Origin: a virus | Lineage: Duplodnaviria > Heunggongvirae > Uroviricota > Caudoviricetes | Reading direction: 5' to 3' (one strand) | Virus record (IMG/VR): IMGVR_UViG_3300006100_000010 | DNA length: 49,503 nt | Shown here: positions 23,514-44,987 of the stretch, piece after piece | Position numbering within the stretch: position 1 is the first letter of the stretch | Layout: every line of letters starts with the position of its first letter | The notes under the pieces: generated by a model | What the model was told of the DNA's origin: nothing | Database searches by the model: none | What the model saw: the letters and a program-made list of their open reading frames with translations, nothing else | Program-made: the position numbers and the translations under genes

Positions 23514-23586
23514 GGACCTGGCGCATAACGGCTGGTGTACCCGACTGTCTATCGGTGTTTAGAGGGTTCGACTCCCTTCAGGTCCG
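23514..23586 (+). tRNA. tRNA-Asp(GTC)
   Basis: GGACCTG/CAGGTCC acceptor; loop CTGTCTA; T arm GAGGG-TTCGACT-CCCTT. Confidence 0.88.
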
Positions 23587-23646
23587 CTAAAATACTTCAC
23601 AGCAAAAGTCGTAAGTTCGAATGATAAATAATAAAAAGAAAGTATC

Positions 23647-24327
23647 ATGAAAACTTGCGAAAACTGTGGAAAAGATCACACTGGAGAATACGGAAGTGGT
23701 CGATTTTGTTCTTTGAAATGCTCTAGGGGATTTAGTACTAAAGGTAAGAGAAGTGAAATCAATAAAAAGGTATCAGCTGCTCTTAGCAATAGTGGGAACA
23801 CTCCAGTCAAAAAAAGTTGCAAGTTATGTAAGAATGAATTTGCTGTTGCTTGGAATAAGCGTAGGCAAATGTATTGTTCATCTTCATGCGCAGCAAAAGA
23901 TATTGGTTGGAAAAATAGTCATTCTAAAATCTCAAAGAGCAAGTGGTCTGAAATAAACAAAAGATCTTATGCTTTAGGTAAAAATCGAATTGCTGGTGGA
24001 ACTACCAAGTGGCTCAATTACAAAGACATAAAAGTTCAAGGAACGTATGAACTCGCTGCTTGTAAAAAGCTAGATCTACTTAAAGAAAGAGGTGAAATTT
24101 TTAAATGGGAATATGCAGTAAATCGAATATCCTATATAGGGATCGATAGAAAAAAGCACACATACTTAATTGATTTTACAGTTACACTACCTGATGGAAG
24201 TATTAAGTTCATCGAAGTTAAGGGAAGAGAAACTGATAATGATAAACTAAAGTGGAATGCGGTAAGAGAAGCGGGACATACTCTTGAAGTATGGAGAAAA
24301 TTTGATTTATTATCTAAAGTTCTTTAA
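23647..24327 (+). CDS. Free-standing PD-(D/E)XK (TnsA-like) endonuclease with N-terminal Cys-rich zinc fingers, homing-endonuclease-like
   Basis: YLIDF...FIEVKG catalytic motif; several CxxC/FCSxxC motifs; own GATAAATA promoter; inserted between tRNAs. Confidence 0.75.
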   Translation: MKTCENCGKDHTGEYGSGRFCSLKCSRGFSTKGKRSEINKKVSAALSNSGNTPVKKSCKLCKNEFAVAWNKRRQMYCSSSCAAKDIGWKNSHSKISKSKWSEINKRSYALGKNRIAGGTTKWLNYKDIKVQGTYELAACKKLDLLKERGEIFKWEYAVNRISYIGIDRKKHTYLIDFTVTLPDGSIKFIEVKGRETDNDKLKWNAVREAGHTLEVWRKFDLLSKVL

Positions 24328-24331
24328 AAAT

Positions 24332-24404
24332 GCCGAGATAGCTCAGTTGGTAGAGCGCAACACTCATAATGTTGAGGTAACGGGTTCAAACCCCGTTCTC
24401 GGTA
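24332..24404 (+). tRNA. tRNA-Met(CAT), probably elongator
   Basis: GCCGAGA/TCTCGGT; loop CTCATAA. Confidence 0.88.
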
Positions 24405-24416
24405 CGAAAATAACAT

Positions 24417-24489
<73 letters not shown>

Positions 24490-24492
24490 CTA

Positions 24493-24657
24493 AGTCAGTA
24501 GTAACGTGAGAGTTACTTCGAAATCCATTATCAGGACGGTGTCGGTGGTTCGAATCCATCTCTCCCCACTAAGAAGAAATTCTTAATTTTTAACTTGGGG
24601 AGATAGCTCAGCTGGTAGAGCACGTAAAAGAAAAATCTCTCGCAACTTTCTCTGACT
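24493..24657 (+). ncRNA. Y RNA-like RNA 1 (YrlA-type order: T arm, closed acceptor stem, D arm)
   Basis: AGTCAG-TAGTAAC-GTGAGAGT-TACTTC pairs with CTCTCGC-AACTTTCT-CTGACT; inside are T arm 24544-24560, TCTCCCCA/TGGGGAGA and D arm GCTC..GAGC; near the Ro60 gene. Confidence 0.8.
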
Positions 24658-24696
24658 AATTTTTTAAAAGCTAGGAGAATTTAGTATTATCTACAC

Positions 24697-25074
24697 ATGG
24701 ATAATAATTTAAGAGAACTAAGCAACCAGTTGTTAGCGATGCCAAAACAAATGGCAGACACACAACTCATAATCTTGGAAAAGAGCCAAGAGGCTCAGAA
24801 GATCGAGAACGAGATCTCTGAGATCGAGACTAAACTGAAGATGTCTATAGCAAATAAGCTGGACGAAAGCGGTAAGAAAGTCTACTCAAATGCAGATGCT
24901 AGAGAAGCTGCATTCGTCGAAGCCTGTACTGGTGAGTTTGACCTAATTGAATTAAAGTCAAAACTAGCAGCCATACAAAATCAAATTCAATTGTCAAAGA
25001 TTGCATATGAGAGGGTCGGCAACGAACAAAAGAATCTAAGAATAGTGTTACAACTATTTTCAGAAGCGGAATAA
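24697..25074 (+). CDS. Hypothetical coiled-coil protein
   Basis: 125 aa between Y RNA 1 and the Ro60 gene. Confidence 0.6.
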   Translation: MDNNLRELSNQLLAMPKQMADTQLIILEKSQEAQKIENEISEIETKLKMSIANKLDESGKKVYSNADAREAAFVEACTGEFDLIELKSKLAAIQNQIQLSKIAYERVGNEQKNLRIVLQLFSEAE

Positions 25075-25167
25075 ATTTTTTCAATAAACTTGAAATAGCG
25101 ACAATAAACTTAGTAAGTTTATTAAACTAAATCAAGTTTACCAAATAAAAACCTTGTACTAAAAATT

Positions 25168-26793
25168 ATGGCAAAATTTAGAAACCAAAATCTTCGCAAC
25201 ACGCTCGCTGGTATGCAGCCTGATGCGAAGCTGGTTGAAGCAGCAACCCTGCCTAAGCCAGACACCAAGAACCGTCAAGGTCACGCAGCTTATTCTATGG
25301 ATAAGTGGCTTCACCTCTTGACAATGCTAAACACTCTCAAACTCGAGAACCAGTTTTATCGTTCTGAAAACGAAACGATGAAAGAGCTCAAGGGTCTAGT
25401 GGATGTTTGTGCAAAGGAAGACGCTTATCTAGTAGCACAGTGCATCGTGTATTCACGTTGCGTCGGTGAAGGTATGCGTTCAGTAAACCACCTAGCCGCA
25501 AGCTACCTTGCACCACACTGTGCAGGAAAAGACTGGGCAAAGCGTTTCTACTCACTGTGGAACAAGAAGACTCAATCAGGCGGTACTATCTTCAGACCGG
25601 ATGACATGTCAGAAATTGTTGCTTGCTTCTCAGCAATGAACAAGACTGCTGTGACAAACGCAATGAAGAAAGGATTCAAGGATGCTCTTGAAAAGCTAGA
25701 TGCATACTCTCTATTGAAATACAAGGGAGATCTGATCGACGTTGCTAACCTAGTTCACCCTAACCCTAGCCTGTCAAAGGCAACGGCAAAGGTTGATAGC
25801 GAAAAGGTCTCAGTGCTTTCAGCGATCATGAAGGGCTTGCCAGTGTCAGCCGACACTTGGGAAGTTGCTCAGTCTGATGCAGGTCAAGAAGTTGCAAAGG
25901 CCGTAAAGGCAGGTAAGCTTACTGAAACTCAAGCGGAAAAAGTCCTAAAGGAAGCTAAGGCTGAAAACTGGAACGCTCTCTTGACAGAAGGAAAGCTGGG
26001 TATCCTTGCAGCACTTCGCAACATCAGAAACATCATAACAAATGATGCAAAGGCTGCGGCAATCACTGCACTATGCGATCTACTTTCTGATGGCGTAGCG
26101 ATCCGTAAGGGAAAGATCATGCCGTACCAAATCGATATGGCTCACGAAGTCCTAACCTCTGAGTTCAGCAACATGGAATCTCGTAAGATCGCTCAAGCTC
26201 TTTTGAAGGGATACGAAGCGGCAGTGCCGAACCTAGCAGAAATGCTTCCTGGCAGAAACCTGATCATGGTTGACTTTTCTGGATCTATGGGTACACAAGT
26301 AGTCGATCCAAACAAGAAGACACGATACAAGAGCTCATGCTTGGATAAGGCAGCGCTGATTGCAGCAACGATAGCAAAAGCAACAAACGCGGATATTATT
26401 CGCTTTGGATCTGATGCAGAGTACGCTAAATACAATGCAAATGCAGACGTCTTCACTATTGCTAACGCAATGAAGAGAGACATGGGAGGAACAAGCCTTG
26501 AAACTGCATGGAATGTAGCTCAAAGATCTGGCACAAAGTACGATAGAGTATTCATACTCTCAGATAACGAATGTAACCGTGGCTCAAGCTACAAGGCATA
26601 CGAAAGATATGTCAAGGCATGCGGAAGCCCATACGTTTACTCAGTGGATCTAGCCGCATACGGAACAGCTCAACTCGCAGGAGATAAGGTTCGTTTCTAC
26701 TACGGCTACGGATACTCAATGTTCGATGACATCGCGAAGAGCGAGTTCAACCCGAACTACCACCTCGAAAAGGTGAAGAAGATTGTGATCTAA
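25168..26793 (+). CDS. rsr: Ro60/Rsr RNA-binding protein (TROVE + vWA)
   Basis: TROVE-type N-terminus (GHAAY, NQFYRS, GMRS, AMKKG, AALRNIRNI) and vWA MIDAS motifs VDFSGSM, GGT, ILSDNE; flanked by Y-like RNAs. Confidence 0.9.
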   Translation: MAKFRNQNLRNTLAGMQPDAKLVEAATLPKPDTKNRQGHAAYSMDKWLHLLTMLNTLKLENQFYRSENETMKELKGLVDVCAKEDAYLVAQCIVYSRCVGEGMRSVNHLAASYLAPHCAGKDWAKRFYSLWNKKTQSGGTIFRPDDMSEIVACFSAMNKTAVTNAMKKGFKDALEKLDAYSLLKYKGDLIDVANLVHPNPSLSKATAKVDSEKVSVLSAIMKGLPVSADTWEVAQSDAGQEVAKAVKAGKLTETQAEKVLKEAKAENWNALLTEGKLGILAALRNIRNIITNDAKAAAITALCDLLSDGVAIRKGKIMPYQIDMAHEVLTSEFSNMESRKIAQALLKGYEAAVPNLAEMLPGRNLIMVDFSGSMGTQVVDPNKKTRYKSSCLDKAALIAATIAKATNADIIRFGSDAEYAKYNANADVFTIANAMKRDMGGTSLETAWNVAQRSGTKYDRVFILSDNECNRGSSYKAYERYVKACGSPYVYSVDLAAYGTAQLAGDKVRFYYGYGYSMFDDIAKSEFNPNYHLEKVKKIVI

Positions 26794-26860
26794 TCAGTCA
26801 CAACACTAGACTGGGATGGAGGAGACTTCTACCCAGTCACAAAATGTCGAAAGACACAAA

Positions 26861-26870
26861 GTTCTTTGAA
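26861..26870 (+). promoter_or_regulatory. rrn-type boxA-like element with upstream GNRA hairpin (26845-26856)
   Basis: GTTCTTTGAA; related copies at 24319, 29674, 30109 and 30379. Confidence 0.5.
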
Positions 26871-26877
26871 AGACATA

Positions 26878-27004
26878 ATCAGGTAGCAACGTAAGAGTTA
26901 CTTCGTAGTGCAATTGGTAGCACAATTTTTTTGGGAAAAATGGGTTGCGGGTTCAATCCCCGTCGAGCGGCGAAAGCCGAATACTCTTACACTTTCCTCC
27001 TGAT
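26878..27004 (+). ncRNA. Y RNA-like RNA 2 (non-permuted D, anticodon TGG, T arms inside the stem)
   Basis: ATCAGG-TAGCAAC-GTAAGAGT-TACTTC / ACTCTTAC-ACTTTCCT-CCTGAT; anticodon-like loop TTTGGGA at 26930-26936. Confidence 0.75.
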
Positions 27005-27013
27005 ATTTTATTA

Positions 27014-27154
27014 AAGACGTAGCAAGAATAGAGTTACTTCGCAATTATTGGTTCGAATCCAATATTTTCTCACTGGGAAAATTAGACAAATGGTTAAGTC
27101 GACAAATTCATAATTTGTTTTTCAGAAACAACGCTCTACTCATTTTCTCGTCTT
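27014..27154 (+). ncRNA. Y RNA-like RNA 3 (T arm, closed acceptor, D arm, anticodon arm CAT)
   Basis: AAGACG-TAGCAAG-AATAGAGT-TACTTC / GCTCTACT-CATTTTCT-CGTCTT; arm ACAAA-TTCATAA-TTTGT. Confidence 0.75.
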
Positions 27155-27163
27155 AAATTTATA

Positions 27164-27294
27164 AAACTGATAGCAATGGATAAGGTTACTTCGAAAATTA
27201 GCTCAGTTGGTTGAGCGTTTATATTCCAATAAAAGGTCATTGGTTCAACTCCAATATTTTCATCCAAACATACCTTACCGATTTTCTTCAGTTT
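27164..27294 (+). ncRNA. Y RNA-like RNA 4 (complete cloverleaf with encoded CCA nested in the stem)
   Basis: AAACTGA-TAGCAAT-GGATAAGGT-TACTTC / ACCTTACC-GATTTTCT-TCAGTTT; inner GAAAAT/ATTTTC acceptor followed by A-T-CCA (27262-27266). Confidence 0.75.
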
Positions 27295-27298
27295 ATTT

Positions 27299-27371
27299 GC
27301 GGAAGTAGCTCATTTGGTAGAGCGATAGCCTTCCAAGCTATAGGCGGCCGGTTCAAGCCCGGTCTTCCGCT
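27299..27371 (+). tRNA. tRNA-Gly(TCC)
   Basis: GCGGAAG/CTTCCGC, U73; loop CTTCCAA. Confidence 0.93.
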
Positions 27372-27412
27372 CTAGATAGTTTTGTACTTTGTTACAAACA
27401 TCAAAATAACAT

Positions 27413-27485
27413 CGTGAGGTAGAGCAGTGGCCAGCTCGTTGGGCTCATAATCCAAAGGTCGTAGGTTCGAATCCTACCCTCGCAA
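27413..27485 (+). tRNA. Second initiator tRNA-fMet(CAT)
   Basis: C1:A72; anticodon stem TTGGG/TCCAA with one G-U. Confidence 0.85.
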
Positions 27486-27539
27486 CAACGGAGAGTAGAC
27501 GTAAGTCTTCTAACAAAGAAGGGGTTTACTCAAAGACAT

Positions 27540-27684
27540 AAATCAGTAGTAACGTGAGAGTTACTTCAATATTTGACTATTAATCAGAAGGTCTGGGTTC
27601 GAATCCCAGTGCGGAGAGCAATCTCAGTATGGTGTAAATGGCAGCATAAAAACGAAAAACCACTCTCGCAACTTTCTCTGATTT
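27540..27684 (+). ncRNA. Y RNA-like RNA 5 (anticodon-like arm ATT, T arm, GCAA-closed acceptor, D arm)
   Basis: AATCAG-TAGTAAC-GTGAGAGT-TACTTC / ACTCTCGC-AACTTTCT-CTGATT; stem almost identical to RNA 1. Confidence 0.78.
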
Positions 27685-27692
27685 TTTTAAAT

Positions 27693-27764
27693 GCCGCGTT
27701 CGTCTATCGGCTAGGACATCTCCCTTTCACGGAGGGAAGAGGGGTTCAACTCCCCTACGCGGTA
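27693..27764 (+). tRNA. tRNA-Glu(TTC)
   Basis: GCCGCGT/ACGCGGT; loop CTTTCAC. Confidence 0.9.
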
Positions 27765-27769
27765 CTAAA

Positions 27770-27883
27770 TTAACTCACGGAGTTCGCTAGCAGATGGTAG
27801 AGATGCAACTACCTGGGTGCAGCGGAGTTGACCAGATCAACATTGACCTATGATTTATCTAAAAAGCGGGCACCGTGAGTTAA
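27770..27883 (+). ncRNA. Unknown structured RNA A
   Basis: Perfect 11-bp closing stem TTAACTCACGG/CCGTGAGTTAA; inner hairpins GGTAG/CTACC, GTTGA/TCAAC, TTCGCT/AGCGGA. Confidence 0.5.
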
Positions 27884-27900
27884 AAATAAAAAACCAAAAA

Positions 27901-27933
27901 GTGAAACTCTATTTGAGTTTGGTGTATAAATAA
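27901..27933 (+). promoter_or_regulatory. tRNA-array promoter 2: GTGAAACT-N15-GTATAAATAA
   Basis: Same boxes and spacing as 23316 and 29434. Confidence 0.75.
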
Positions 27934-27940
27934 TAAAGTA

Positions 27941-28063
27941 ATGAAAAACTATCGTAACATATCAAATCACTCATGCAGCTGGAATCACATTCCAACAGGA
28001 GTGAAGTTTGTGTCTACACTAAAATCAACTGGTGCAGGAAAAAACGAGGTTCGAATAAGTTAA
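27941..28063 (+). CDS. Putative leader peptide 2 (40 aa, MKNYRNISNHSCSWNH...EVRIS)
   Basis: ATG 7 nt after the promoter; stop 22 nt before the terminator; 3' end contains a strand complementary to the terminator. Confidence 0.55.
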   Translation: MKNYRNISNHSCSWNHIPTGVKFVSTLKSTGAGKNEVRIS

Positions 28064-28085
28064 CAGTAAAAATAACTATATAGAG

Positions 28086-28116
28086 AACCTCGAACCACAA
28101 AAGTTCGAGGTTTTTT
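28086..28116 (+). terminator. Terminator/attenuator hairpin upstream of tRNA-Val
   Basis: AACCTCGAAC-CACAAAA-GTTCGAGGTT plus T run. Confidence 0.85.
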
Positions 28117-28122
28117 GTTTAT

Positions 28123-28197
28123 AGTCTCTTAGCTCAGTTGGTTCAGAGCGGTTGCCTTACAAGCAATAGGTCAGGGGTTCGACTCCCTTAGGGACTA
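28123..28197 (+). tRNA. tRNA-Val(TAC)
   Basis: AGTCTCT/AGGGACT; loop CTTACAA. Confidence 0.92.
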
Positions 28198-28282
28198 CTT
28201 AAAAGAAAGTAATTAAAAAAAATGAAGCGAAAGCGAAAATATAAACGGTAAGAGCACGTAGCCTTTGAGTTACGTGGTGAAT

Positions 28283-28356
28283 GACTTCGTAGCTCAGTTG
28301 GTAGCAGCAATACACTTTTAATGTATGGGTCGTTGGTTCAAATCCAACCGGAGTCA
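28283..28356 (+). tRNA. tRNA-Lys(TTT)
   Basis: GACTTCG/CGGAGTC; loop CTTTTAA. Confidence 0.9.
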
Positions 28357-28367
28357 CTGATTACAAT

Positions 28368-28439
28368 GCACCTATAGCTGAGCGGTAAAGCTGCGCCCTC
28401 TTAAGGCGATGATCCCAGCTTCAAATCCTGGTGGGTGCA
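28368..28439 (+). tRNA. tRNA-Lys(CTT), atypical T stem
   Basis: GCACCTA/TGGGTGC; loop CTCTTAA; C in place of G53 gives a C-C mismatch. Confidence 0.7.
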
Positions 28440-28462
28440 CACCATTAAAAACAAAGAGAGTC

Positions 28463-28969
28463 ATGATGAAGTTAAGCGATTTTAGAGTATTGGTTCTTAA
28501 TGCAGATTATCAGCCTGTCAACATGACTTCTTTTAAGAAGGGCTGTAAGTTGGTCTACAAAGGAAAGGCAGAAGTTCTTACATTAGACGAAGAAAACAAC
28601 CTGACCTCTGCAGTGCTTACTGAGGTTCGACCAAAGGTAATTAGACTCTTGCAGTACATTTACCTTCCTCATCGGAAGATGAGCCTCACTAAGCAAAACA
28701 TCTACAAGCGCGACGGATATCGTTGTGGCTACTGTGGATCCAAAGATGAGTTGACAATCGACCACATCTTGCCTAAGTCCAGAGGAGGTAAAAATAGCTG
28801 GGAAAACCTAGTTACTTGTTGCTCAAAGTGCAACAGCAAAAAGGACAACCAGACCCCAGCTGAAGCTCGAATGAAATTGAGAGTTGAGCCACACGCGCCG
28901 ACTTTCAAGAGCTTGATTGGGTTAAGTAAAGACTCAAGTCTCACTGACGCTCTAGTAGCTCAGTGGTAA
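28463..28969 (+). CDS. HNH endonuclease
   Basis: VLVLNADYQP N-terminus, CGYCG, LTIDHILPKSRGG, NLVTCCSKCN; the ORF-track start lies inside tRNA-Lys, so ATG 28463 is preferred. Confidence 0.9.
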   Translation: MMKLSDFRVLVLNADYQPVNMTSFKKGCKLVYKGKAEVLTLDEENNLTSAVLTEVRPKVIRLLQYIYLPHRKMSLTKQNIYKRDGYRCGYCGSKDELTIDHILPKSRGGKNSWENLVTCCSKCNSKKDNQTPAEARMKLRVEPHAPTFKSLIGLSKDSSLTDALVAQW

Positions 28970-29046
28970 GTTAAGTGTCTTGCATGCTCTGATGAAATTC
29001 GACTGCAAGGTCTCGGTAGGCAGAACGCGTCTGAACCTACCCACAC

Positions 29047-29122
<76 letters not shown>

Positions 29123-29198
29123 AGCAAGGAAGTAGTTTGCAGAAAGTTGTGCCGTGTTCTGCTGATGAAATTAAACCCTTGTGACAACGGTGCAACCC

Positions 29199-29270
29199 GG
29201 TCATATAGCTCAGCGGGAGAGCGCTTCCTTGACGTGGAAGAAGTCGGTGGTTCAAATCCATCTGGGATCA
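29199..29270 (+). tRNA. tRNA-Val(GAC)
   Basis: Loop TTGACGT; acceptor has one A-G mismatch. Confidence 0.82.
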
Positions 29271-29329
29271 CTAAGTCGCAGAAAGGTAACTCCAGTATTT
29301 GATTACCGTTGCCCTCCTGCGACTCCACT

Positions 29330-29401
29330 GCCTCATTAGCTCAGTGGTAGAGCTGCTCATTTGTAATGAGCGGGTCGGCAGTTCGAATCTGTCATGAGGC
29401 T
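29330..29401 (+). tRNA. tRNA-Thr(TGT)
   Basis: GCCTCAT/ATGAGGC; loop TTTGTAA. Confidence 0.93.
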
Positions 29402-29433
29402 CTCAAATAAAAAGTAATTTATTTTCACACAAA

Positions 29434-29466
29434 GTGAAACTCTTTAGTAAAATATTGTATAAATAA
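29434..29466 (+). promoter_or_regulatory. tRNA-array promoter 3: GTGAAACT-N15-GTATAAATAA
   Basis: Same boxes and spacing as promoters 1 and 2. Confidence 0.75.
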
Positions 29467-29490
29467 CTAAGACTATTAAAGTCAAACAAA

Positions 29491-29586
29491 ATGAAAAAGC
29501 AAGCCTACATACGAATTTATAGACCGTGCCAACCGTTAGCATGGCAGCTAGGCTTGTCGAATCATAATTCACTAAGCCGATTCTGA
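29491..29586 (+). CDS. Putative leader peptide 3 (MKKQAYIRIYRPCQPLAWQLGLSNHNSLSRF)
   Basis: A-rich start context after promoter 3; its 3' end overlaps alternative pairings. Confidence 0.5.
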   Translation: MKKQAYIRIYRPCQPLAWQLGLSNHNSLSRF

Positions 29587-29687
29587 TCCCCTGGCCAGTG
29601 AATATCTCAAATCCATAATTTTACACAACCGATTTTAGGAATGCACTGGCCTCTAGTAGGAAGGCTTAATAATGTTCTTTGAATATT

Positions 29688-29762
29688 GGTCCCTTAGCTC
29701 AGATGGTTAGTAGCATCTGACTCATAATCAGAGGGTCACTGGTTCAAGTCCAGTAGGGACCA
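29688..29762 (+). tRNA. tRNA-Ile2(CAT, lysidine type) probable
   Basis: GGTCCCT/AGGGACC, GACTCATAATC arm and CTGGTTCAAGTCCAG T arm resemble bacterial tRNA-Ile2. Confidence 0.78.
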
Positions 29763-29769
29763 CACATAT

Positions 29770-29851
29770 GGGTATACGCCGAAGTTGGAGAGTCGGGGCG
29801 GTCTGTAAAACCGTTGCATTAGCTGAACAGGTTCGAATCCTGTTATACTCA
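29770..29851 (+). tRNA. tRNA-Tyr(GTA)
   Basis: Loop CTGTAAA; long variable arm. Confidence 0.9.
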
Positions 29852-29856
29852 CACTT

Positions 29857-29934
29857 GGAAAGGTAGCGCAGTTGGTCAGTTCGCACCGGACTGAAAATCC
29901 GGCGATGTGAGTTCGATTCTCACCCTTTCCACCA
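29857..29934 (+). tRNA. tRNA-Phe(GAA), CCA encoded
   Basis: GGAAAGG/CCTTTCC; loop CTGAAAA. Confidence 0.92.
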
Positions 29935-29935
29935 A

Positions 29936-30027
29936 TCAGTATGGGTTAATTGCCTCGAGAGACGTCTCGATATAAAAACCGGTCTTCGCTTAGAAGATAG
30001 ATGTTGGTCTGGAATCCAACTGCTGAA
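29936..30027 (+). ncRNA. tRNA-like structured element of unknown identity
   Basis: TCAGTA/TGCTGA closing stem, TCGAGA/TCTCGA, TCTTC/GAAGA and GTTGG/CCAAC arms; non-canonical loops. Confidence 0.4.
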
Positions 30028-30030
30028 TAC

Positions 30031-30103
30031 GGCCTTGTAGCTCAATGGATAGAGCATCTGACTACGGATCAGAAGGTTTAGGGTTCGAGTCCCTACGAGG
30101 TCA
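30031..30103 (+). tRNA. tRNA-Arg(ACG)
   Basis: Loop CTACGGA; canonical arms. Confidence 0.93.
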
Positions 30104-30122
30104 CTAACGTTCTTTAACGAAT

Positions 30123-30204
30123 GCTCGGGTGGTGAAATAGGTAGACACGTCAGACTTAAACCCTGGTGGATTTTTCCGTGCGGGTTCGATTCCCGCCTCG
30201 AGTA
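30123..30204 (+). tRNA. tRNA-Leu(TAA)
   Basis: Leu-type D loop and long variable arm; loop CTTAAAC with A-C mismatch at the stem base. Confidence 0.82.
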
Positions 30205-30209
30205 CTAAT

Positions 30210-30283
30210 GGTCCTGTAGCTCAGTTGGATAGAGCATCTCACTTCTAATGAGACGGTCGGGGGTTCGAATCCCTTCGGGACTA
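30210..30283 (+). tRNA. tRNA-Arg(TCT)
   Basis: Loop CTTCTAA. Confidence 0.93.
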
Positions 30284-30289
30284 CAAACT

Positions 30290-30373
30290 GCCTCGATGGC
30301 GGAATCGGTAGACGCGTCGGTCTCAAAAACCGATCGAAGATAGTAGGTGCGGGTTCGATTCCCGCTCGAGGTA
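30290..30373 (+). tRNA. tRNA-Leu(CAA)
   Basis: Loop CTCAAAA; long variable arm. Confidence 0.92.
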
Positions 30374-30611
30374 CTGAAGATCTTTGAAATATTGGAACAA
30401 AAGAAATTGAAATGTTGCTGAAAGCACTTCAATGAAAAGTTAGAATGAAAGCTTTAGAGTCATTTGCAATAACACACGCAAAGGCTTTAAAAACCGCGAG
30501 CCGGATGAAAGGTCCGGACAGGTTGCAGATGATGATACTGTTAGTAGGTCTAGCTAAGTAAAAGAAGGGAGTAAGTAACAGAGTAAGGCACATAGACTAA
30601 TTAGTCTATAA

Positions 30612-30682
30612 CACAGCGGACAGTGCACCGGCTTAGCATTTGCGTTTGGCGCCGGGGAGGTGGGTTCGAATCCCACTAGTCA
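30612..30682 (+). pseudogene. Degenerate tRNA (Pro TGG-like relic)
   Basis: Perfect T arm GTGGG-TTCGAAT-CCCAC and D-like GTGC/GCAT, TTTGG triplet region, but no convincing acceptor or anticodon stem. Confidence 0.35.
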
Positions 30683-30704
30683 AATTAAGTGATGTGTCAG
30701 TTAT

Positions 30705-30777
30705 CGGGATGTAGCTCAGTTGGTAGAGTACTCGGTTTGGGACCGAGACGCCGGAGGTTCGAGTCCTCTCATCCCGA
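30705..30777 (+). tRNA. tRNA-Pro(TGG)
   Basis: CGGGATG/CATCCCG; loop TTTGGGA. Confidence 0.93.
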
Positions 30778-30780
30778 CTA

Positions 30781-30891
30781 AGGACTTAAATAAGCTGAGG
30801 TGGTAGAGAGTGCCATAGGTAAGTTGACGACGGTCGACTGAGAGAAGGGGTACTACACGGTGACGGACCTCTGTAAATGCTCAGCTGTCCT
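30781..30891 (+). ncRNA. Unknown structured RNA B
   Basis: AGGAC/GTCCT and AGCTGAG/CTCAGCT closing stems; inner GTGGTA/TGCCAT, AGTTGAC/GTCGACT and GGGGT/ACCTC helices. Confidence 0.5.
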
Positions 30892-30895
30892 ACTT

Positions 30896-30975
30896 GCCCA
30901 GGTGGCGTAATGGCAGCCGCGCCAGACTTAGGATCTGGTGTCTTTGACGTGTCGGTTCGAGTCCGACCCTGGGTA
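30896..30975 (+). tRNA. tRNA-Leu(TAG)
   Basis: GCCCAGG/CCTGGGT; loop CTTAGGA. Confidence 0.92.
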
Positions 30976-30980
30976 CAAAA

Positions 30981-31062
30981 TGTCCGGTGGCGAAATTGGT
31001 AGACGCACCATCATGAGGAGGTGGCGGTTTTTATCGTGCGGGTTCGAATCCCGCTTCGGACA
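30981..31062 (+). tRNA. tRNA-Leu(GAG), irregular acceptor stem
   Basis: Leu D loop, loop ATGAGGA, long variable arm; the acceptor needs a 1-nt bulge. Confidence 0.68.
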
Positions 31063-31180
31063 CAAGATCTAATAGTGTAAACGCGTAGCGGCCGACACAT
31101 GATGGTTCGTCCTTTTAGACGATAGAGTTAAACTCAGCCACATATAGGAACGATAAGGCCTCCTTAGATCAAAATAACAT

Positions 31181-31303
31181 GGGGAAGAATGCAAAACAAA
31201 CACTTTGTCGCACATTCTTCGGAAACGATAGCAACAGATAGAGTTACTTCGCAATCAATCTGTAAAATTGACGTTTGGTATTGAGAGATACCCTTCCCCA
31301 CCA
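31181..31303 (+). ncRNA. Y RNA-like RNA 6: tRNA-Tyr-like body with native CCA end and the conserved stem in place of the D arm
   Basis: GGGGAAG/CTTCCCC-A-CCA; TCAAT-CTGTAAA-ATTGA; GGTAT/ATACC; ACTTTGTC-GCACATTCT-TCG-GAAA-CGA-TAGCAAC-AGATAGAGT-TACTTC. Confidence 0.7.
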
Positions 31304-31304
31304 T

Positions 31305-31375
31305 GGTCTTGTGGCCGAGTGATTAGGCGCAGCTCTGCAAAAGCTGATACACTGGTTTGATCCCAGTCGAGACCT
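31305..31375 (+). tRNA. tRNA-Cys(GCA)
   Basis: GGTCTTG/CGAGACC, U73; loop CTGCAAA. Confidence 0.9.
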
Positions 31376-31382
31376 CTTAAAT

Positions 31383-31453
31383 ACGTTCGTGGTGCAATGG
31401 TAGCATACCGGTCTCCAAAACCGTTGATGGGGGTTCGAATCCCTCCGTTCGTG
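31383..31453 (+). tRNA. tRNA-Trp(CCA)
   Basis: Loop CTCCAAA; acceptor has two U-U mismatches. Confidence 0.78.
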
Positions 31454-31466
31454 CAAAAAATAAATT

Positions 31467-31541
31467 GGGTACATAGCTCAGAGGTAGAGCAATCGGCCGT
31501 TAACCGATTGGCCGCAGGTTCGATCCCTGCTGTGCCCGCCA
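31467..31541 (+). tRNA. tRNA-Asn(GTT), CCA encoded
   Basis: GGGTACA/TGTGCCC, G73; loop CCGTTAA (C33). Confidence 0.88.
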
Positions 31542-31563
31542 ACGAATCTAGCGGATTCATAAT

Positions 31564-31634
31564 TGTCCCTTCGTCTAATGGCAGGACATCTGATTTTGGC
31601 TCAGATAATTGAGGTTCGAATCCTTGAGGGACAA
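31564..31634 (+). tRNA. tRNA-Gln(TTG)
   Basis: TGTCCCT/AGGGACA; loop TTTTGGC. Confidence 0.88.
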
Positions 31635-31644
31635 CAATAACTAT

Positions 31645-31718
31645 GGGGAATTAGCTCACTTGGCTAGAGCGCCTGCTTTGCAAGCAGGAGGCAGCGAGTT
31701 CGACTCTCGCATTCTCCA
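31645..31718 (+). tRNA. tRNA-Ala(TGC)
   Basis: G3:U70; loop TTTGCAA. Confidence 0.94.
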
Positions 31719-31786
31719 CTTGAGGGAGGTGGGATGACCACCCAACGATTCAGCTCGTCACTGAGTCGGCTTCCCCAAAATAACTA

Positions 31787-31861
31787 GGACAAAAAGGTGT
31801 GGGGAGGATCGCACGCTGGGCTCGCAACCCAGAAGACTGGTTCGTGTCTCCAGTGAGTCCA
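31787..31861 (+). pseudogene. tRNA-like element with initiator-type anticodon stem and CGC triplet
   Basis: CTGGG-CTCGCAA-CCCAG, GTGT/GCAC D-like stem, ACTGG/CCAGT T-like stem with 9-nt loop, only 4-bp acceptor GGAC/GTCC. Confidence 0.45.
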
Positions 31862-31864
31862 TAT

Positions 31865-31938
31865 AGGCAATTAGCTCATTTGGTTAGAGCGCCGATCTGA
31901 TACGTCGGAGGTGCCCAGTTCGAGCCTGGGATTGCCTA
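31865..31938 (+). tRNA. tRNA-Ile(GAT)
   Basis: AGGCAAT/ATTGCCT; loop CTGATAC. Confidence 0.92.
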
Positions 31939-31954
31939 CTTAAAAACAAAAACA

Positions 31955-32410
31955 ATGTCACTAAAAGCAACAATCTATGCGGACTTTATGACTGCATTTA
32001 AAGCAAAAGAAGAAAAGGCAAAGTCTGCTCTGAGCATGCTGAAGGCAAAGATCACTGAAGCCGAAAAGGCAAATAAGAATCAGGAACTTACTGATGCTGA
32101 AGTGCTAAAGGTGATACTTGCTTCGGTGAAACAGAGAAAGCAATCGATCGGCGAATTTGAGAAGGGCGGCCGACCTGATCTTGTTGAAAAGGAGGCGGCA
32201 GAGCTCAAGGTTCTTGAAGCATACCTTCCAAAACAAATGTCTCGCGAAGAGATTGAGTCTGAATTGCGTACGATCCTACTTGGTTTTGGCGAAAAAGAAC
32301 CGCATAACAAAAAGGTGGGACAGAGCATGGGAATGTTCAATAAGAAGTTTCCAGGAATGGCTGACCCGAAGGTAGTACAAGAGGTCATAAATTCTCTGGT
32401 TGCTGCATAA
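31955..32410 (+). CDS. yqeY: GatB/YqeY domain protein
   Basis: MSLKATI..D...A.KAK, KQRKQSI..FEKGGRPDLVEKEAAELKVLEAYLPKQMS. Confidence 0.92.
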   Translation: MSLKATIYADFMTAFKAKEEKAKSALSMLKAKITEAEKANKNQELTDAEVLKVILASVKQRKQSIGEFEKGGRPDLVEKEAAELKVLEAYLPKQMSREEIESELRTILLGFGEKEPHNKKVGQSMGMFNKKFPGMADPKVVQEVINSLVAA

Positions 32411-32421
32411 AAATCAATAAT

Positions 32422-32504
32422 GGAGAGTGCCCGAATGGACGAGGAACCTGTCTTGAAAACAGCTGGGTGTAAAAGCTTTGGGGGTTCGATTCCCTCACTC
32501 TCCG
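32422..32504 (+). tRNA. tRNA-Ser(TGA)
   Basis: GGAGAGT/ACTCTCC, G73; loop CTTGAAA; long variable arm. Confidence 0.88.
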
Positions 32505-32540
32505 CCGAAAACCAATAGTCATGGAAAAAAGATCTCCGAA

Positions 32541-32963
32541 ATGTCGGACGCTGAGTTTACTGCCTTTGCTGAAAAGGAAAAGGCTGAAATACAACTCGCT
32601 AAGAAAAAAGAGCTGCTCGATCGCTGGAATAATCTTCCTAGGTTCGATGAGGTGCACCAAGTTCCTATTCTGCCTCAGGTAGACGATCCAAGGGAATGGT
32701 CAGAGTTTTATGTAAAGAAACTCATCTCATCTGGAGCTATTCCCAAGGAGGCCCTAAAGGATGGAGAGCATTACGTGGGATCCCATCGCAGAGCGCAAGT
32801 CGCTCGATGGAATTCTGAAATGGGTCGATTTGAATACTGGAGAACCAAGTTCAACCAGACTTTCATCGACTACTGTAATCACTTTGAAGACGACGACGGG
32901 TTTTCTCTGTTTGTTCCAATTGGCACTGCCTCGAAAGATCAGTTTGAAAAGAACGAAATATAA
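32541..32963 (+). CDS. Hypothetical phage protein
   Basis: The ORF-track start lies inside tRNA-Ser; first in-frame ATG outside it is 32541. Confidence 0.6.
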   Translation: MSDAEFTAFAEKEKAEIQLAKKKELLDRWNNLPRFDEVHQVPILPQVDDPREWSEFYVKKLISSGAIPKEALKDGEHYVGSHRRAQVARWNSEMGRFEYWRTKFNQTFIDYCNHFEDDDGFSLFVPIGTASKDQFEKNEI

Positions 32964-32966
32964 TTT

Positions 32967-33055
32967 GGAAAGGTACTCAAGATGGCTTAAGAGGACGCTT
33001 TGCTAAAGCGTTAGGTCGGGTAACTGGCGCGTGGGTTCAAATCCCACTCTTTCCG
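32967..33055 (+). tRNA. tRNA-Ser(GCT)
   Basis: GGAAAGG/TCTTTCC; loop TTGCTAA; long variable arm. Confidence 0.92.
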
Positions 33056-33119
33056 CAAAAAGACTGTTGATGTAGGCTGTCAGCCATAGAGGGGTGAGTC
33101 AAACATATTCCCTTCACAT

Positions 33120-33193
33120 GGAGTCATTAGCTCAATTGGTAGAGTGCCGGGTTGTGGTCCCGGAGGCAATGGGATCGAAGCCCATATGACTCC
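33120..33193 (+). tRNA. tRNA-His(GTG) with encoded G-1
   Basis: G-1:C73; loop TTGTGGT; T loop ATCGAAG. Confidence 0.88.
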
Positions 33194-36571: not shown

Positions 36572-37144
36572 ATGAAAAAGTTAATTGCAATAGCATTCTT
36601 TGCGGTAACTATAACAGTTCATGCACAAACAAAGCTTGATACTCTAATATTCAATAAAGTAAATGAATATCGCGCTGAAAATTGCTTGTCTTCACTAAAA
36701 TGGTCAGAATCAGCTACTTGTGTTGCACAAAACCAGGTAGAATATTGCTATCGTATAAAATATATTTTTCACTATCAGACGGATAGCTCAGTAAACGATT
36801 CAAGTTTTAAAATTGAACCAAACTTTCAAAAAAGATTCAAGCAGGGAGGAGTTAACATATCCGGTAAAACCTGGACGATTGCTGAGAATCTTTTAGTATA
36901 TGTAGATACTACTGATAATTATACTGAAAGTCTTGAGAAAGTTGCAAATGAGACTATTTCTGGATGGAAAGAGTCGCCTGAACACAATGCAATGATGCTG
37001 AGAATCGACCTTGAATATGCAGCAGTCGCTCACACGATCGGCAAAGAATTCGTAAAACGTTGGTTTGATCCAATAATGTTTGAAGACTACGAAACAATAT
37101 TTCAAGGAAAAGCTTATTATATTGCGTTAGACGCGTATAGATGA
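36572..37144 (+). CDS. Secreted CAP (SCP-like) domain protein, copy 1
   Basis: Signal peptide MKKLIAIAFFAVT; VNEYRA, AENL, WKESPEHNAMML. Confidence 0.82.
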   Translation: MKKLIAIAFFAVTITVHAQTKLDTLIFNKVNEYRAENCLSSLKWSESATCVAQNQVEYCYRIKYIFHYQTDSSVNDSSFKIEPNFQKRFKQGGVNISGKTWTIAENLLVYVDTTDNYTESLEKVANETISGWKESPEHNAMMLRIDLEYAAVAHTIGKEFVKRWFDPIMFEDYETIFQGKAYYIALDAYR

Positions 37145-37805: not shown

Positions 37806-38369
37806 ATGAAAAAGTTAATTGCAATAGCATTCTTTGCGGTAACTATCTCAGCAAACGCACAGACTCACCTTGACACTTTGATCTTCAATAAAGTCAATGA
37901 GTATCGCGCTAAAAAAGGAATAAAGCCGCTTTTCTGGAGTGATCAAGGCTATCGAGTAGCAAAAAACCAAGCACAATATATAAAGCTGCTTAAAGCAGTA
38001 ATCCACGATCAAATAGATAGTGTAAGTCCGACTTTTAAATTGGAACCAAATTTTGTTAAGCGTTTTTCAAGACAGGGAATTTGCGTAACTGATACTAACT
38101 CATACGAAGCTGAAAATCTTGTAGCGGTCGGAGACACTGTTGCCTTTGTGAGCGATGAGGAAGTCGCAAACCGTGCGATTAACTCTTGGAAGAATTCACC
38201 GGCACATAATTCAATGATGCTTATGAAAGAAGTAACGTTCGCTGGTGTTGCGAACGTTATTGGAAGTGAATTATATGATGTCGCTGGAATAGATCCGGCA
38301 ACTTTGGAAGAAACAATTATTCAAGTAAAAGGATATGTTTACTTTATTGCGCTAGACGCTCACAATTAA
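37806..38369 (+). CDS. Secreted CAP (SCP-like) domain protein, copy 2
   Basis: Same signal peptide; AENL, WKNSPAHNSMML. Confidence 0.82.
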   Translation: MKKLIAIAFFAVTISANAQTHLDTLIFNKVNEYRAKKGIKPLFWSDQGYRVAKNQAQYIKLLKAVIHDQIDSVSPTFKLEPNFVKRFSRQGICVTDTNSYEAENLVAVGDTVAFVSDEEVANRAINSWKNSPAHNSMMLMKEVTFAGVANVIGSELYDVAGIDPATLEETIIQVKGYVYFIALDAHN

Positions 38370-39750: not shown

Positions 39751-40629
39751 ATGATGAAACACATACAAATATCAGCTGACCGAAAACTAAATAAGCTGAA
39801 GGGTACTAACACCTATTTTAATGAGATTGACCGAATCAAGAGATTAACTATCGACCAGGAAGTTGACCTGGCAACCAGAGCAAAAGCCGGCGACAAGGCC
39901 GCGATGGACAAGCTGATCGAGGCAAACCTCAAGTTCGTGGTGTCAGTAGCAAAAAATTACACATCAGATCCAGTCCTAGTGCAGGAGCTCATTGCCCAAG
40001 GCAATATCGGAATTATCCGTGCAGCGCAAAAATTTGATCCTACTCGCGGATTCAAGTTCATAACGTATGCAGTTTTCTGGATTCGTAACGAGATTCTTGA
40101 ATACTACCTAAAGTACAATAGAGTGGTTCACCTGCCGTTGCACGTCGAAAACGACCTTAGAAAGGTAAAAAGGGTGCAGGCAAAGCTTGAACAAAAGTTT
40201 GATCGAACCCCTACCTTAAACGAAATCGAAGATGAGCTAATCAAAATAGGAGAGCCGATTGATCTGGACAAGCTTAGACTCATACTTGAAGTAAAGGATC
40301 ATGCCGTGCCCCTAGTGACTGACGACCCTGAGTCATACGATCCAATCGAGTGGATAGAGGTCAAGTCAGAGACTGAAGTGACGATGCAACAGCTTGAATT
40401 TAGGGAAAAGATCGACGAGATACTTGAGGTACTCAGCCCAGACGAGAGGTCAATTGTGAGAAAGAGGCATGGATTTGACGGGTACGGCCCAATGGAATTT
40501 GAAGCGATTGGGATCCAGCACGGAAAAGGCACAGGTTGGGCAAGTCAGAGATATGCGATAGCGATGCGAAAAATGAGGGCTAAGCTCCACTTGATAAATT
40601 CATCAGAAGAGATCACTTTTTCTCTATAA
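39751..40629 (+). CDS. RNA polymerase sigma70-family factor (RpoD/RpoH-like)
   Basis: Region 2 LIEANLKFVVSVAKNY, QGNIG, KFDPTRGFKFITYAVFWIR; region 4 LSPDERSIV..RHG. Confidence 0.92.
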   Translation: MMKHIQISADRKLNKLKGTNTYFNEIDRIKRLTIDQEVDLATRAKAGDKAAMDKLIEANLKFVVSVAKNYTSDPVLVQELIAQGNIGIIRAAQKFDPTRGFKFITYAVFWIRNEILEYYLKYNRVVHLPLHVENDLRKVKRVQAKLEQKFDRTPTLNEIEDELIKIGEPIDLDKLRLILEVKDHAVPLVTDDPESYDPIEWIEVKSETEVTMQQLEFREKIDEILEVLSPDERSIVRKRHGFDGYGPMEFEAIGIQHGKGTGWASQRYAIAMRKMRAKLHLINSSEEITFSL

Positions 40630-44212: not shown

Positions 44213-44223
44213 ATAAGATATAT

Positions 44224-44973: not shown

Positions 44974-44987
44974 ATAAGATATATTTA

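What the first reader, a model, noticed from the sequence alone, without database searches (positions are those of the whole stretch)
26878..27294. Non-permuted tRNAs nested inside Y-type stems (RNAs 2 and 4), one with an internal CCA
Seen: RNA 4 holds a full cloverleaf (C-GAAAAT/ATTTTC-A, then T-CCA at 27263-27266) wholly inside the module. Its anticodon loop is an imperfect 6-nt ATTCCA. RNA 2 has D, anticodon (TTTGGGA, same loop as the real tRNA-Pro) and T arms in normal order plus an extra GAAA hairpin. Inference: these could be precursors from which a tRNA-like RNA is excised, or substrates that bring tRNA-processing enzymes to Ro60.
Basis: partly seen in the sequence, partly recalled or inferred. 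Interest (0 to 1): 0.7.

Follow-up and report, generated by a model that had tools for sequence, protein, structure and literature searches.

The report
Phage Y RNAs holding normal-order tRNA look-alikes
Two small RNAs beside a phage Ro60-like gene each carry a complete tRNA look-alike, in normal tRNA order, clamped by the handle shared by all the Ro60-partner RNAs here. This layout is conserved across many uncultured phages but was not described in the papers I could read.

Summary
RNA 4 (27166-27292) encloses a full cloverleaf (27192-27262) with a 6-nt anticodon loop, followed by T-CCA (27263-27266). RNA 2 (26879-27003) has a 4-bp acceptor-like stem, D, anticodon and T arms in tRNA order, and a GAAA hairpin.

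Both are conserved classes. 23 distinct RNA-4-type and 23 distinct RNA-2-type sequences from related phage contigs keep about 97% of pairs, and most pairs show compensatory changes. Tertiary pairs covary too (15:48 and 19:56).

The class travels with the Ro60/Rsr gene. It also occurs in GenBank phage csAssE-Sib, where two such RNAs are annotated as tRNA-Tyr and tRNA-Lys.

They are not ordinary decoders. Anticodons differ among close relatives. RNA-4 orthologues with 7-bp acceptors never have the C74 that 98% of these phages' real tRNA genes encode.

The internal CCA is not general (0 of 13 in the 7-bp class). It recurs in 5 of 10 sequences of the 6-bp class, so processing of that subclass is not excluded.

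Best reading: these are Y RNAs (Rsr partners) whose tRNA mimic is tethered by its acceptor end, the reverse of the permuted YrlA. That makes them a new variant of a known kind.

This scan noted the same kind on other DNA before (e1-5779857, e1-1598606, e1-5713440).

The parts
25168..26793 (+). rsr: Ro60/Rsr orthologue (TROVE ring plus vWA domain), the presumed protein partner
   Evidence: Pfam TROVE 27.3 bits against a cut-off of 23, and vWA_Ro60 24.3 bits, below its 27.7 cut-off. A profile of 12 phage orthologues matches Thermus phage phiLo Ro60 (9KOP/9L5Y, E 6e-25, full length), Xenopus Ro60 (1YVP, 1.5e-9) and D. radiodurans Rsr (2NVO, 9e-8).
26879..27003 (+). RNA 2: Y-type handle enclosing a tRNA-like body in D, anticodon, T order
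   Evidence: Model R2 finds 23 distinct members, 96.8% of cells paired, 29 of 35 pairs with changes on both sides.
26879..26901 (+). RNA 2 handle, 5' strand: lower helix, UAGCAA internal loop, upper helix, start of GUUACUUC
   Evidence: Shared with all the Y-like RNAs. Helices covary.
26902..26967 (+). RNA 2 tRNA-like body: 4-bp acceptor-like stem (26902-05/26964-67), D arm 26908-23, anticodon arm 26925-41, T arm 26947-63
   Evidence: Rfam tRNA 44.4 bits, model positions 5-66. Covariation in every arm.
26968..26979 (+). RNA 2 extra hairpin, 4 bp with a GAAA loop
   Evidence: Present in 20 of 23 distinct members, mostly with a GNRA loop; stem pairs covary CG/GC.
26983..27003 (+). RNA 2 handle, 3' strand
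   Evidence: Pairs with 26879-26899.
27166..27292 (+). RNA 4: Y-type handle enclosing a complete cloverleaf
   Evidence: Model R1 scores it 146 bits. 23 distinct RNA-4-type members.
27166..27191 (+). RNA 4 handle, 5' strand, ending in the invariant GUUACUU
   Evidence: Mean column identity of the GUUACUUC motif is 0.98.
27192..27262 (+). RNA 4 cloverleaf: acceptor of 6 bp plus C.A, D arm, anticodon arm with 6-nt loop, T arm
   Evidence: Rfam tRNA 49.9 bits. ARAGORN tRNA-???. All four stems are 100% paired across 13 orthologues. The Levitt 15:48 pair covaries.
27263..27266 (+). T73 followed by internal CCA
   Evidence: Read directly. CCA in this register occurs in 5 of 10 distinct 6-bp-class orthologues and 0 of 13 of the 7-bp class.
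27272..27292 (+). RNA 4 handle, 3' strand, with the UUUCU loop strand
24491..24665 (+). RNA 1 (context): same handle with a permuted, YrlA-type tRNA-like body
   Evidence: Rfam YrlA RF02553 32.3 bits, E 1.8e-5, below the gathering score of 69.
27012..27158 (+). RNA 3 (context): same handle, permuted body. Its T arm plus acceptor strand is 91% identical to that of RNA 4.
   Evidence: (repeat family D12).
27539..27690 (+). RNA 5 (context): same handle, body ordered anticodon arm, T arm, closed stem, D-like arm
   Evidence: (partial tRNA match, 26.7 bits).

Best explanation
RNAs 2 and 4 are two conserved classes of phage Y RNA, that is, partner RNAs of the phage's Ro60/Rsr protein. Each has the handle common to all the Y-like RNAs at this locus: a lower helix, a UAGYAA/UUUCU internal loop, a bulged upper helix and an invariant GUUACUUC. 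This handle is presumably what Rsr binds.

The variable 'effector' end is an L-shaped tRNA look-alike written in normal tRNA order and joined to the handle through its acceptor end. In RNA 4 both strands of a 6-7 bp acceptor stem continue through single-stranded linkers into the handle. In RNA 2 a 4-5 bp acceptor stem is followed by a small, mostly GNRA-capped hairpin that may stack on it to give a closed acceptor.

Canonical YrlA is attached through the anticodon-stem end. This layout is the reverse: it places Rsr next to the acceptor end and leaves the tRNA elbow and a complete anticodon arm exposed.

The RNAs are most likely transcribed with the tRNA array and cut out by the tRNA-processing machinery at their outer ends. 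They then act as tRNA mimics on Rsr, as tethers or gates for a tRNA-binding or RNA-degrading partner, and not as decoding tRNAs.

Shown here: the folds, their conservation, the link to rsr, and the departures from genuine tRNAs. Inferred: Rsr binding, the stacking of the RNA 2 hairpin, the transcription unit, and the tether or gate role.
For: 1. Fold. Covariation supports every helix of handle and cloverleaf on unfitted alignments, on model-fitted wider sets of 31 and 23 distinct rows, and in unguided RNAalifold.

2. L-shape. The Levitt pair 15:48 switches between G:C, A:U and U:A. In L015-L017 the elbow pair 19:56 changes from G:C to A:U.

3. Link to Rsr. The gene is a Ro60 orthologue. Of 31 IMG/VR loci with a full-length R1 match, 25 hold rsr within the stored stretch, against 2 of 48 pattern-only loci. 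The class spans phages whose Rsr is only 29-53% identical to this one. Eighty pattern matches in cellular genomes gave no R1 hit at E <= 1e-10.

4. Not decoders. Anticodons differ among orthologues (UGG, UAG, AGG, CAG, GUG, GCU, UCA and others) and loops are 6 to 8 nt. Mean column identity is 0.68 in the anticodon loop against 0.98 for GUUACUUC. C74 is present in 0 of 13 of the 7-bp class but in 384 of 391 genuine tRNA genes.

5. Precedent. YrlA is a tRNA mimic modified by TruB and DusA, and Yrn1 has a D-like element, an anticodon arm and a T arm in tRNA order (PMC4201824; 10.1101/312249). A phage Ro60 binds phage Y-like RNAs and host PNPase (PMC12135203).
Against: No binding, expression or end-mapping data exist for any member, and no cultured host is known.

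The handle does not carry the published GNCGAAN0-1G Ro-binding motif in a clear form. Rfam YrlA does not match RNAs 2 or 4 at all, even at E <= 10.

The recurrent CCA (5 of 10 in the 6-bp class), the invariant G1-C72 and the following A in RNA-4-type sequences look like features kept for RNase P or 3'-end enzymes. The csAssE-Sib members have canonical 7-nt loops and pass as tRNA-Tyr and tRNA-Lys. Some members may therefore be processed, or even decode.

G36-G37 is kept in 17 of 23 RNA-4-type loops, so the loop is not free of constraint.
Confidence: 0.65

Rival explanations
1. Precursor model. RNase P cuts 5' of the nested acceptor, and a 3' activity cuts at or after the CCA or discriminator. 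This releases a free tRNA-like RNA, or leaves a nicked two- or three-piece Y RNA whose handle strands stay paired on Rsr, as in M. smegmatis YrlA.
For: RNA-4-type sequences have a 6-7 bp acceptor stacked on a canonical T arm, an invariant G1-C72 and a following A. CCA lies in tRNA register in the window, L011, L024, L113:1228 and L104, which is 5 of 10 in the 6-bp class against 0 of 13 in the 7-bp class (Fisher p 0.0075). Only 45 of 391 genuine tRNA genes here encode CCA. M. smegmatis YrlA is cut by RNase P and gains CCA in vivo, and both halves stay with Rsr (PMC4201824).
Against: The 7-bp class has A or T at position 74, where 98% of the phages' real tRNA genes have C. RNA 2 has a 4-5 bp acceptor with a hairpin on its 3' strand, a poor RNase P substrate by the 7-bp rule cited in PMC4201824. 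The handle and both linkers are conserved, which a disposable leader and trailer would not need.
Confidence: 0.2
2. They are ordinary decoding tRNA genes, and the flanking stems are merely processing signals of the tRNA operon.
For: They score above the Rfam tRNA threshold. The csAssE-Sib copies are annotated tRNA-Tyr and tRNA-Lys and have 7-nt loops. They sit inside a tRNA array.
Against: This window's RNA 4 has a 6-nt loop. Anticodons change between near-identical orthologues and include nonsense anticodons. The window already has a full set of tRNAs, including Pro-UGG. C74 is absent in the 7-bp class. The flanks are the rsr-linked handle, found only with rsr. RNA 2 lacks a full acceptor stem.
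Confidence: 0.05
3. They are decaying tRNA pseudogenes or chance tRNA-like folds next to repeated stems, with no function of their own.
For: This window shows irregular features: a 6-nt loop, a C.A mismatch and a short acceptor in RNA 2.
Against: About 97% of pairs are kept, with compensatory changes in most pairs, across phages whose Rsr is 29-80% identical. Tertiary pairs covary. Slid and shuffled controls fail.
Confidence: 0.02

Closest known systems
YrlA (Rfam RF02553), the tRNA-like Y RNA of bacterial and mycobacteriophage Rsr (Chen et al. 2014, PMC4201824; structure 6CU1, bioRxiv 10.1101/312249)
   Same: Encoded beside rsr on the same strand. A long stem is formed by the 5' and 3' ends. 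The effector end is a tRNA mimic with canonical D and T arms, U8, G18-G19, T-loop residues and a covarying Levitt pair. Several Y RNAs occur per locus.
   Different: YrlA is circularly permuted (T arm, closed acceptor stem, D arm), has no anticodon loop and joins the Ro-binding stem through the anticodon-stem position. RNAs 2 and 4 run D, anticodon, T, keep a whole anticodon arm and join the handle through the acceptor end. RF02553 does not match them even at E <= 10. The handle motifs (UAGYAA, GUUACUUC, UUUCU) differ from GNCGAAN0-1G.
Deinococcus radiodurans Yrn1
   Same: As described in PMC4201824, its effector domain has a D-like element, an 'anticodon arm' (5-bp stem, 6-nt loop) and a pseudouridine-containing T arm in tRNA order relative to the Ro-binding stem. 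This is the same orientation as RNAs 2 and 4, and RNA 4 here also has a 6-nt loop.
   Different: Yrn1 has no full D arm, no variable region, no detected dihydrouridine and no acceptor stem. The phage RNAs are complete cloverleaves scoring 44-66 bits on the tRNA model.
M. smegmatis YrlA (cut by RNase P, CCA added)
   Same: A 7-bp acceptor-like stem in a Y RNA that tRNA end-processing enzymes recognise. This is the precedent for the CCA-bearing subclass of RNA 4.
   Different: There the cut opens the closed loop of a permuted body and CCA is added after transcription. Here the CCA is encoded internally, and cutting would separate the tRNA body from the handle.
Thermus phage phiLo Ro60 with Yrl1 and Yrl2 (PMC12135203)
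   Same: A phage Ro60 with phage-encoded Y-like RNAs. It is the closest solved relative of this Rsr and forms a RYPER-like complex with host PNPase.
   Different: Yrl1 and Yrl2 were picked by a CGAA motif and predicted folds. 'tRNA' occurs only twice in that paper's text, so it appears to describe no tRNA cloverleaf.

Membership tests
Y RNA (Ro60/Rsr partner RNA) | Encoded next to a Ro60/Rsr gene and on the same strand | tested here: met
   RNA 2 starts 86 nt after the rsr stop, and RNA 4 is 373 nt after it, both on the + strand. 25 of 31 loci with the RNA also hold rsr, against 2 of 48 without it.
Y RNA (Ro60/Rsr partner RNA) | Long stem formed by the 5' and 3' ends, with a conserved bulged or looped helix | tested here: met
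   Lower and upper helices covary. Internal loop and bulge are conserved.
Y RNA (Ro60/Rsr partner RNA) | Published 5'-strand Ro-binding motif (GGUCCGA in animals, GNCGAAN0-1G in YrlA) | tested here: inconclusive
   There is no clear match. The invariant elements are UAGYAA and GUUACUUC. In RNA 1 the Rfam YrlA alignment places ACUUCGAA on the motif position.
Y RNA (Ro60/Rsr partner RNA) | Physical binding to Ro60/Rsr | not testable with these tools
   Needs co-immunoprecipitation or a gel-shift assay.
YrlA (RF02553) | Score at or above the Rfam gathering threshold (69 bits) | tested here: not met
   No match for RNAs 2 or 4 at E <= 10 or at the gathering score. RNA 1 reaches 32.3 bits.
YrlA (RF02553) | Permuted order: T arm, closed acceptor stem, D arm, with the handle at the anticodon-stem position | tested here: not met
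   The order is D, anticodon, T, and the handle joins at the acceptor end.
YrlA (RF02553) | tRNA-type tertiary nucleotides, with a covarying Levitt pair | tested here: met
   Pair 15:48 is G:C, A:U or U:A. Pair 19:56 changes from G:C to A:U in L015-L017.
tRNA (RF00005), as a decoding tRNA | Cloverleaf scoring above the gathering threshold (29 bits) | tested here: met
   49.9 bits for RNA 4 and 44.4 bits for RNA 2.
tRNA (RF00005), as a decoding tRNA | 7-nt anticodon loop with an anticodon kept among orthologues | tested here: not met
   RNA 4 has a 6-nt loop. Anticodons vary in both classes, and RNA 2's UGG is unique among 23 members.
tRNA (RF00005), as a decoding tRNA | 7-bp acceptor stem with free ends | tested here: not met
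   RNA 4 has 6 bp plus a C.A mismatch, and both strands continue into the handle. RNA 2 has 4 bp followed by a hairpin.
tRNA (RF00005), as a decoding tRNA | 3' flank like the phage's own tRNA genes (C74 in 384 of 391) | tested here: inconclusive
   The window's RNA 4 reads T73-C74-C75-A76 if the C.A pair is counted. All 13 orthologues of the 7-bp class lack C74.
Yrn1-type Y RNA | Effector domain with D-like, anticodon and T elements in tRNA order relative to the Ro stem | tested here: met
   The order is shown. The Yrn1 description is taken from PMC4201824. Sequence homology was not tested.

The most novel reading that the evidence does not exclude
The phage equips one Ro60 ring with a panel of tRNA-shaped RNAs tethered at different points of the tRNA body. 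The acceptor-tethered ones (RNAs 2 and 4) expose a full anticodon arm whose positions 34-35 change quickly while G36-G37 (RNA-4 class) or A36-A37 (RNA-2 class) persist. They could serve as decoys or sensors for host enzymes that attack or modify tRNA anticodon loops, such as anticodon nucleases, and hand the damaged or bound RNA to Rsr and an exonuclease. In the CCA-bearing subclass, RNase P and 3' processing could instead turn the RNA into a split Y RNA carrying a chargeable tRNA-like end.
Probability: 0.12. Interest if true: 0.85.

Novelty: new variant of a known kind. Interest (0 to 1): 0.6.

Why it matters
What the tRNA-like domain of bacterial Y RNAs does is still unknown (PMC4201824; 10.1101/312249).

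A second, well-conserved family presents the same tRNA shape to Ro60 in the opposite orientation, often in the same phage beside the permuted form. This gives a natural experiment. Partners that need the acceptor end, the elbow or the anticodon arm can now be told apart.

It also shows that Y RNAs are more diverse in phages than the Rfam model captures. They can hide in tRNA arrays, as with the two csAssE-Sib 'tRNAs' in GenBank. Counts of phage tRNA genes and of apparent suppressor tRNAs may therefore be inflated by these mimics.

Tried and rejected
- Rfam at relaxed threshold over 26700-27900 gave no YrlA or Y_RNA match for RNAs 2 or 4.
- Nucleotide search of GenBank phages with rsr plus the RNAs found only tRNA-sized matches.
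- The closest GenBank Rsr by protein is 33% identical, so there is no cultured relative.
- R1 and R2 searches around rsr in a 635-kb uncultured phage, Gordonia phage Rabbitrun, Xanthomonas phage Tenjo and crAss001 found no convincing nested form. Only csAssE-Sib has it.
- The genome contigs pattern scan returned 80 loci with no R1 hit. This serves as a chance control. Bacterial Y RNAs with other motifs would not be found this way.
- A single-sequence PDB search and NCBIfam gave nothing for Rsr. A profile was needed.
- No whole genome is held for this window.
- The promoter and terminator scan shows nothing above shuffles between rsr and RNA 5, so transcript ends could not be inferred.
- I considered whether RNA 2's acceptor stem and hairpin always sum to 8 bp. 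The sum ranges from 7 to 9, and three paralogues lack the hairpin, so this stays a suggestion.
- The Sim and Wolin reviews and Burroughs and Aravind 2016 are not held in the library. Absence of prior description is therefore judged only from the papers I could read.

Full report
**Setting**

The window looks like part of a large uncultured phage. It encodes thymidylate synthase, an ATP-dependent ligase, ClpP, a sigma-70-type factor and a VanY-type lysin. It also holds 31-32 tRNA genes on the + strand between 23.5 and 33.2 kb.

The ORF at 25168-26793 is a Ro60/Rsr orthologue. Pfam finds TROVE just above threshold and the Ro60 vWA domain just below it. A profile of twelve phage orthologues matches Thermus phage phiLo Ro60 over its full length (E 6e-25), and also Xenopus and human Ro60 and Deinococcus Rsr.

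Five RNAs around this gene share a handle whose 5' strand ends in GUUACUUC. That motif occurs 6 times in the window against 0.88 expected. RNA 1 (24491-24665) is a sub-threshold match to Rfam YrlA (32.3 bits, E 1.8e-5). This ties the set to known Y RNAs.

**The observation**

RNA 4 encloses a cloverleaf at 27192-27262. It has six acceptor pairs plus a C.A mismatch, a canonical D arm and T arm, and a 5-bp anticodon stem with the 6-nt loop ATTCCA. T-CCA follows at 27263-27266. Rfam's tRNA model gives 49.9 bits, and ARAGORN reports a tRNA with an undefined anticodon.

RNA 2 has D, anticodon and T arms in tRNA order (44.4 bits, model positions 5-66), a 4-bp acceptor-like stem made with the CUUC end of the handle motif, and a GAAA-capped hairpin. 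Its loop TTTGGGA equals that of the genuine tRNA-Pro at 30705.

**Conservation**

The Rsr protein retrieved 37 related IMG/VR loci, and most carry arrays of the same handle.

Thirteen distinct RNA-4-type and fourteen distinct RNA-2-type sequences were aligned with MAFFT, with no structural guidance. On these alignments 97.2% and 97.6% of cells pair. 23 of 33 and 22 of 35 pairs change on both sides. No shuffle of 500 reaches the observed values, and sliding the partners drops pairing to 41-54%. RNAalifold predicts the handle-plus-cloverleaf fold unaided.

Covariance models built from these alignments widened the sets to 31 and 23 distinct rows with the same result. These wider alignments are fitted to the models, so they lean toward the structure.

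Tertiary contacts covary as well. The Levitt pair 15:48 is G:C, A:U or U:A. In L015-L017 a D loop with A19 goes with a T loop with U56. The nested bodies therefore very likely fold into the tRNA L-shape.

**Distribution and link to rsr**

A pattern scan of IMG/VR for the motif followed by a D arm hit at least 119 stretches, and 79 new loci were returned. Of these, 31 have a full-length R1 match of 69 bits or more. rsr lies in the stored stretch in 25 of those 31, against 2 of the other 48.

The same pattern in 80 loci of cellular genomes gave no R1 match at E <= 1e-10. This shows both the chance background of the pattern and the specificity of the model.

The carriers include phages whose Rsr is 36-53% identical to this one. 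They also include the GenBank phage csAssE-Sib (Rsr 29% identical). There a permuted module and two nested modules lie just upstream of the 'Ro sixty-related protein' gene, and the nested ones are annotated as tRNA-Tyr and tRNA-Lys.

**Are they tRNAs?**

Several tests say not in the decoding sense.

- Anticodons differ among orthologues, even near-identical ones, and include nonsense anticodons. Loops are 6-8 nt. The loop is the least conserved part of the body, with mean column identity 0.68 against 0.98 for GUUACUUC.
- The window already has a full tRNA set, including Pro-UGG.
- A test internal to these phages is sharper. Of 391 genuine tRNA genes in the window and 31 related loci, 384 have C at position 74, although only 45 encode full CCA. 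All 13 distinct RNA-4 orthologues with a 7-bp acceptor have A or T there.
- RNA 2 has only 4-5 acceptor pairs, and its 3' strand runs straight into a hairpin.

**The CCA**

CCA is absent from the 7-bp class. In the class with six pairs (the window's class), reading the flanking C and A as a mismatched seventh pair puts N73-CCA in register in 5 of 10 distinct sequences: the window, L011, L024, L113:1228 and L104. This comes from at least four lineages (Fisher p 0.0075 against the 7-bp class).

That is more than base composition would give, so the CCA is either retained from a tRNA ancestor or used. M. smegmatis YrlA is cut by RNase P and gains CCA while both halves stay on Rsr (PMC4201824). A similar nicking of this subclass therefore cannot be excluded.

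**Mechanism**

In YrlA the Ro-binding stem continues from the anticodon-stem position, and the acceptor stem is a closed hairpin (PMC4201824; 10.1101/312249). Here the handle joins at the acceptor end, so the elbow and a complete anticodon arm point away from Rsr.

Yrn1 of Deinococcus has the same order in a much less complete form, including a 6-nt 'anticodon' loop (PMC4201824).

I therefore read RNAs 2 and 4 as Y RNAs with an acceptor-tethered tRNA mimic. They would act on Rsr as tethers or gates, by analogy with Yrn1 and PNPase and with phiLo Ro60, Yrl and PNPase (PMC12135203). Rsr binding, the transcription unit (no promoter or terminator signal above background) and the role itself are all inferred.

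**Novelty**

The papers I could read describe the permuted YrlA, the partial Yrn1 and plain phage Y-like RNAs. None describes a complete normal-order cloverleaf inside the Ro-type stem. Two reviews and one comparative paper could not be read.

This scan has noted the same kind of RNA on other DNA (e1-5779857, e1-1598606, e1-3767688). One note, e1-5713440, describes features that match my L022 row.

I class it as a new variant of a known kind, of moderate to high interest.

Noticed in passing
window 23514-33193 and loci L001-L037: Genuine tRNA genes of this phage group encode C at position 74 in 384 of 391 cases, yet full CCA in only 45. The usual 3' flank is CAA or CTA. This looks like a processing signal specific to the group.
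   Followed up: partly
window 27047-27069 and 27239-27261: RNA 3 (permuted) and RNA 4 (normal order) share a T arm plus acceptor strand at 91% identity, with the same GAAAAU/AUUUUC acceptor. In this phage they look like circular permutations of one body. Relatives such as L003 do not share this.
   Followed up: partly
L042 3602-3886 (GenBank OR575929.1, phage csAssE-Sib): Two genes annotated tRNA-Tyr(gta) and tRNA-Lys(ttt), just upstream of the Ro sixty-related protein gene, lie inside Y-type handles with GUUACUUC (R1 66.7 and 69.7 bits). A permuted module precedes them at about 3466-3590.
   Followed up: partly
L035 2444-2860; L009 1019-1080: A GOLLD RNA (276.9 bits) and a freshwater-1 RNA (86 bits) lie in the tRNA/Y-RNA regions of related phage contigs. 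This points to freshwater phages.
   Followed up: no
L015 6401-6543, L016 6398-6541, L017 6744-6884: RNA-4-type members have a D loop AGCUGAUA and a T loop UUUGAAU. The elbow pair G19:C56 is replaced by A19:U56.
   Followed up: partly
alignments A3 and A4 (anticodon loops): Positions 34-35 vary, but G36-G37 is kept in 17 of 23 RNA-4-type loops. The RNA-2 class mostly reads CUNNAAC (A36-A37). These are the dinucleotides recognised by position-37 modification enzymes in real tRNAs. Ancestry or selection is unresolved.
   Followed up: no
L010 3260-3393, L011 1468-1601, L035 3583-3717: A second RNA-2-like paralogue in some phages lacks the GNRA hairpin altogether. Others carry a different hairpin (L012 5846-5987).
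   Followed up: no
window 28409-28969: An HNH endonuclease ORF sits inside the tRNA array, overlapping the 3' end of tRNA-Lys (28368-28440).
   Followed up: no
window 43502-46178 (- strand): Three adjacent genes encode leucine-rich-repeat-variant/HEAT repeat proteins. Two CAP-domain proteins lie at 36572-37144 and 37806-38369, and a sigma-70-type factor at 39751-40629.
   Followed up: no
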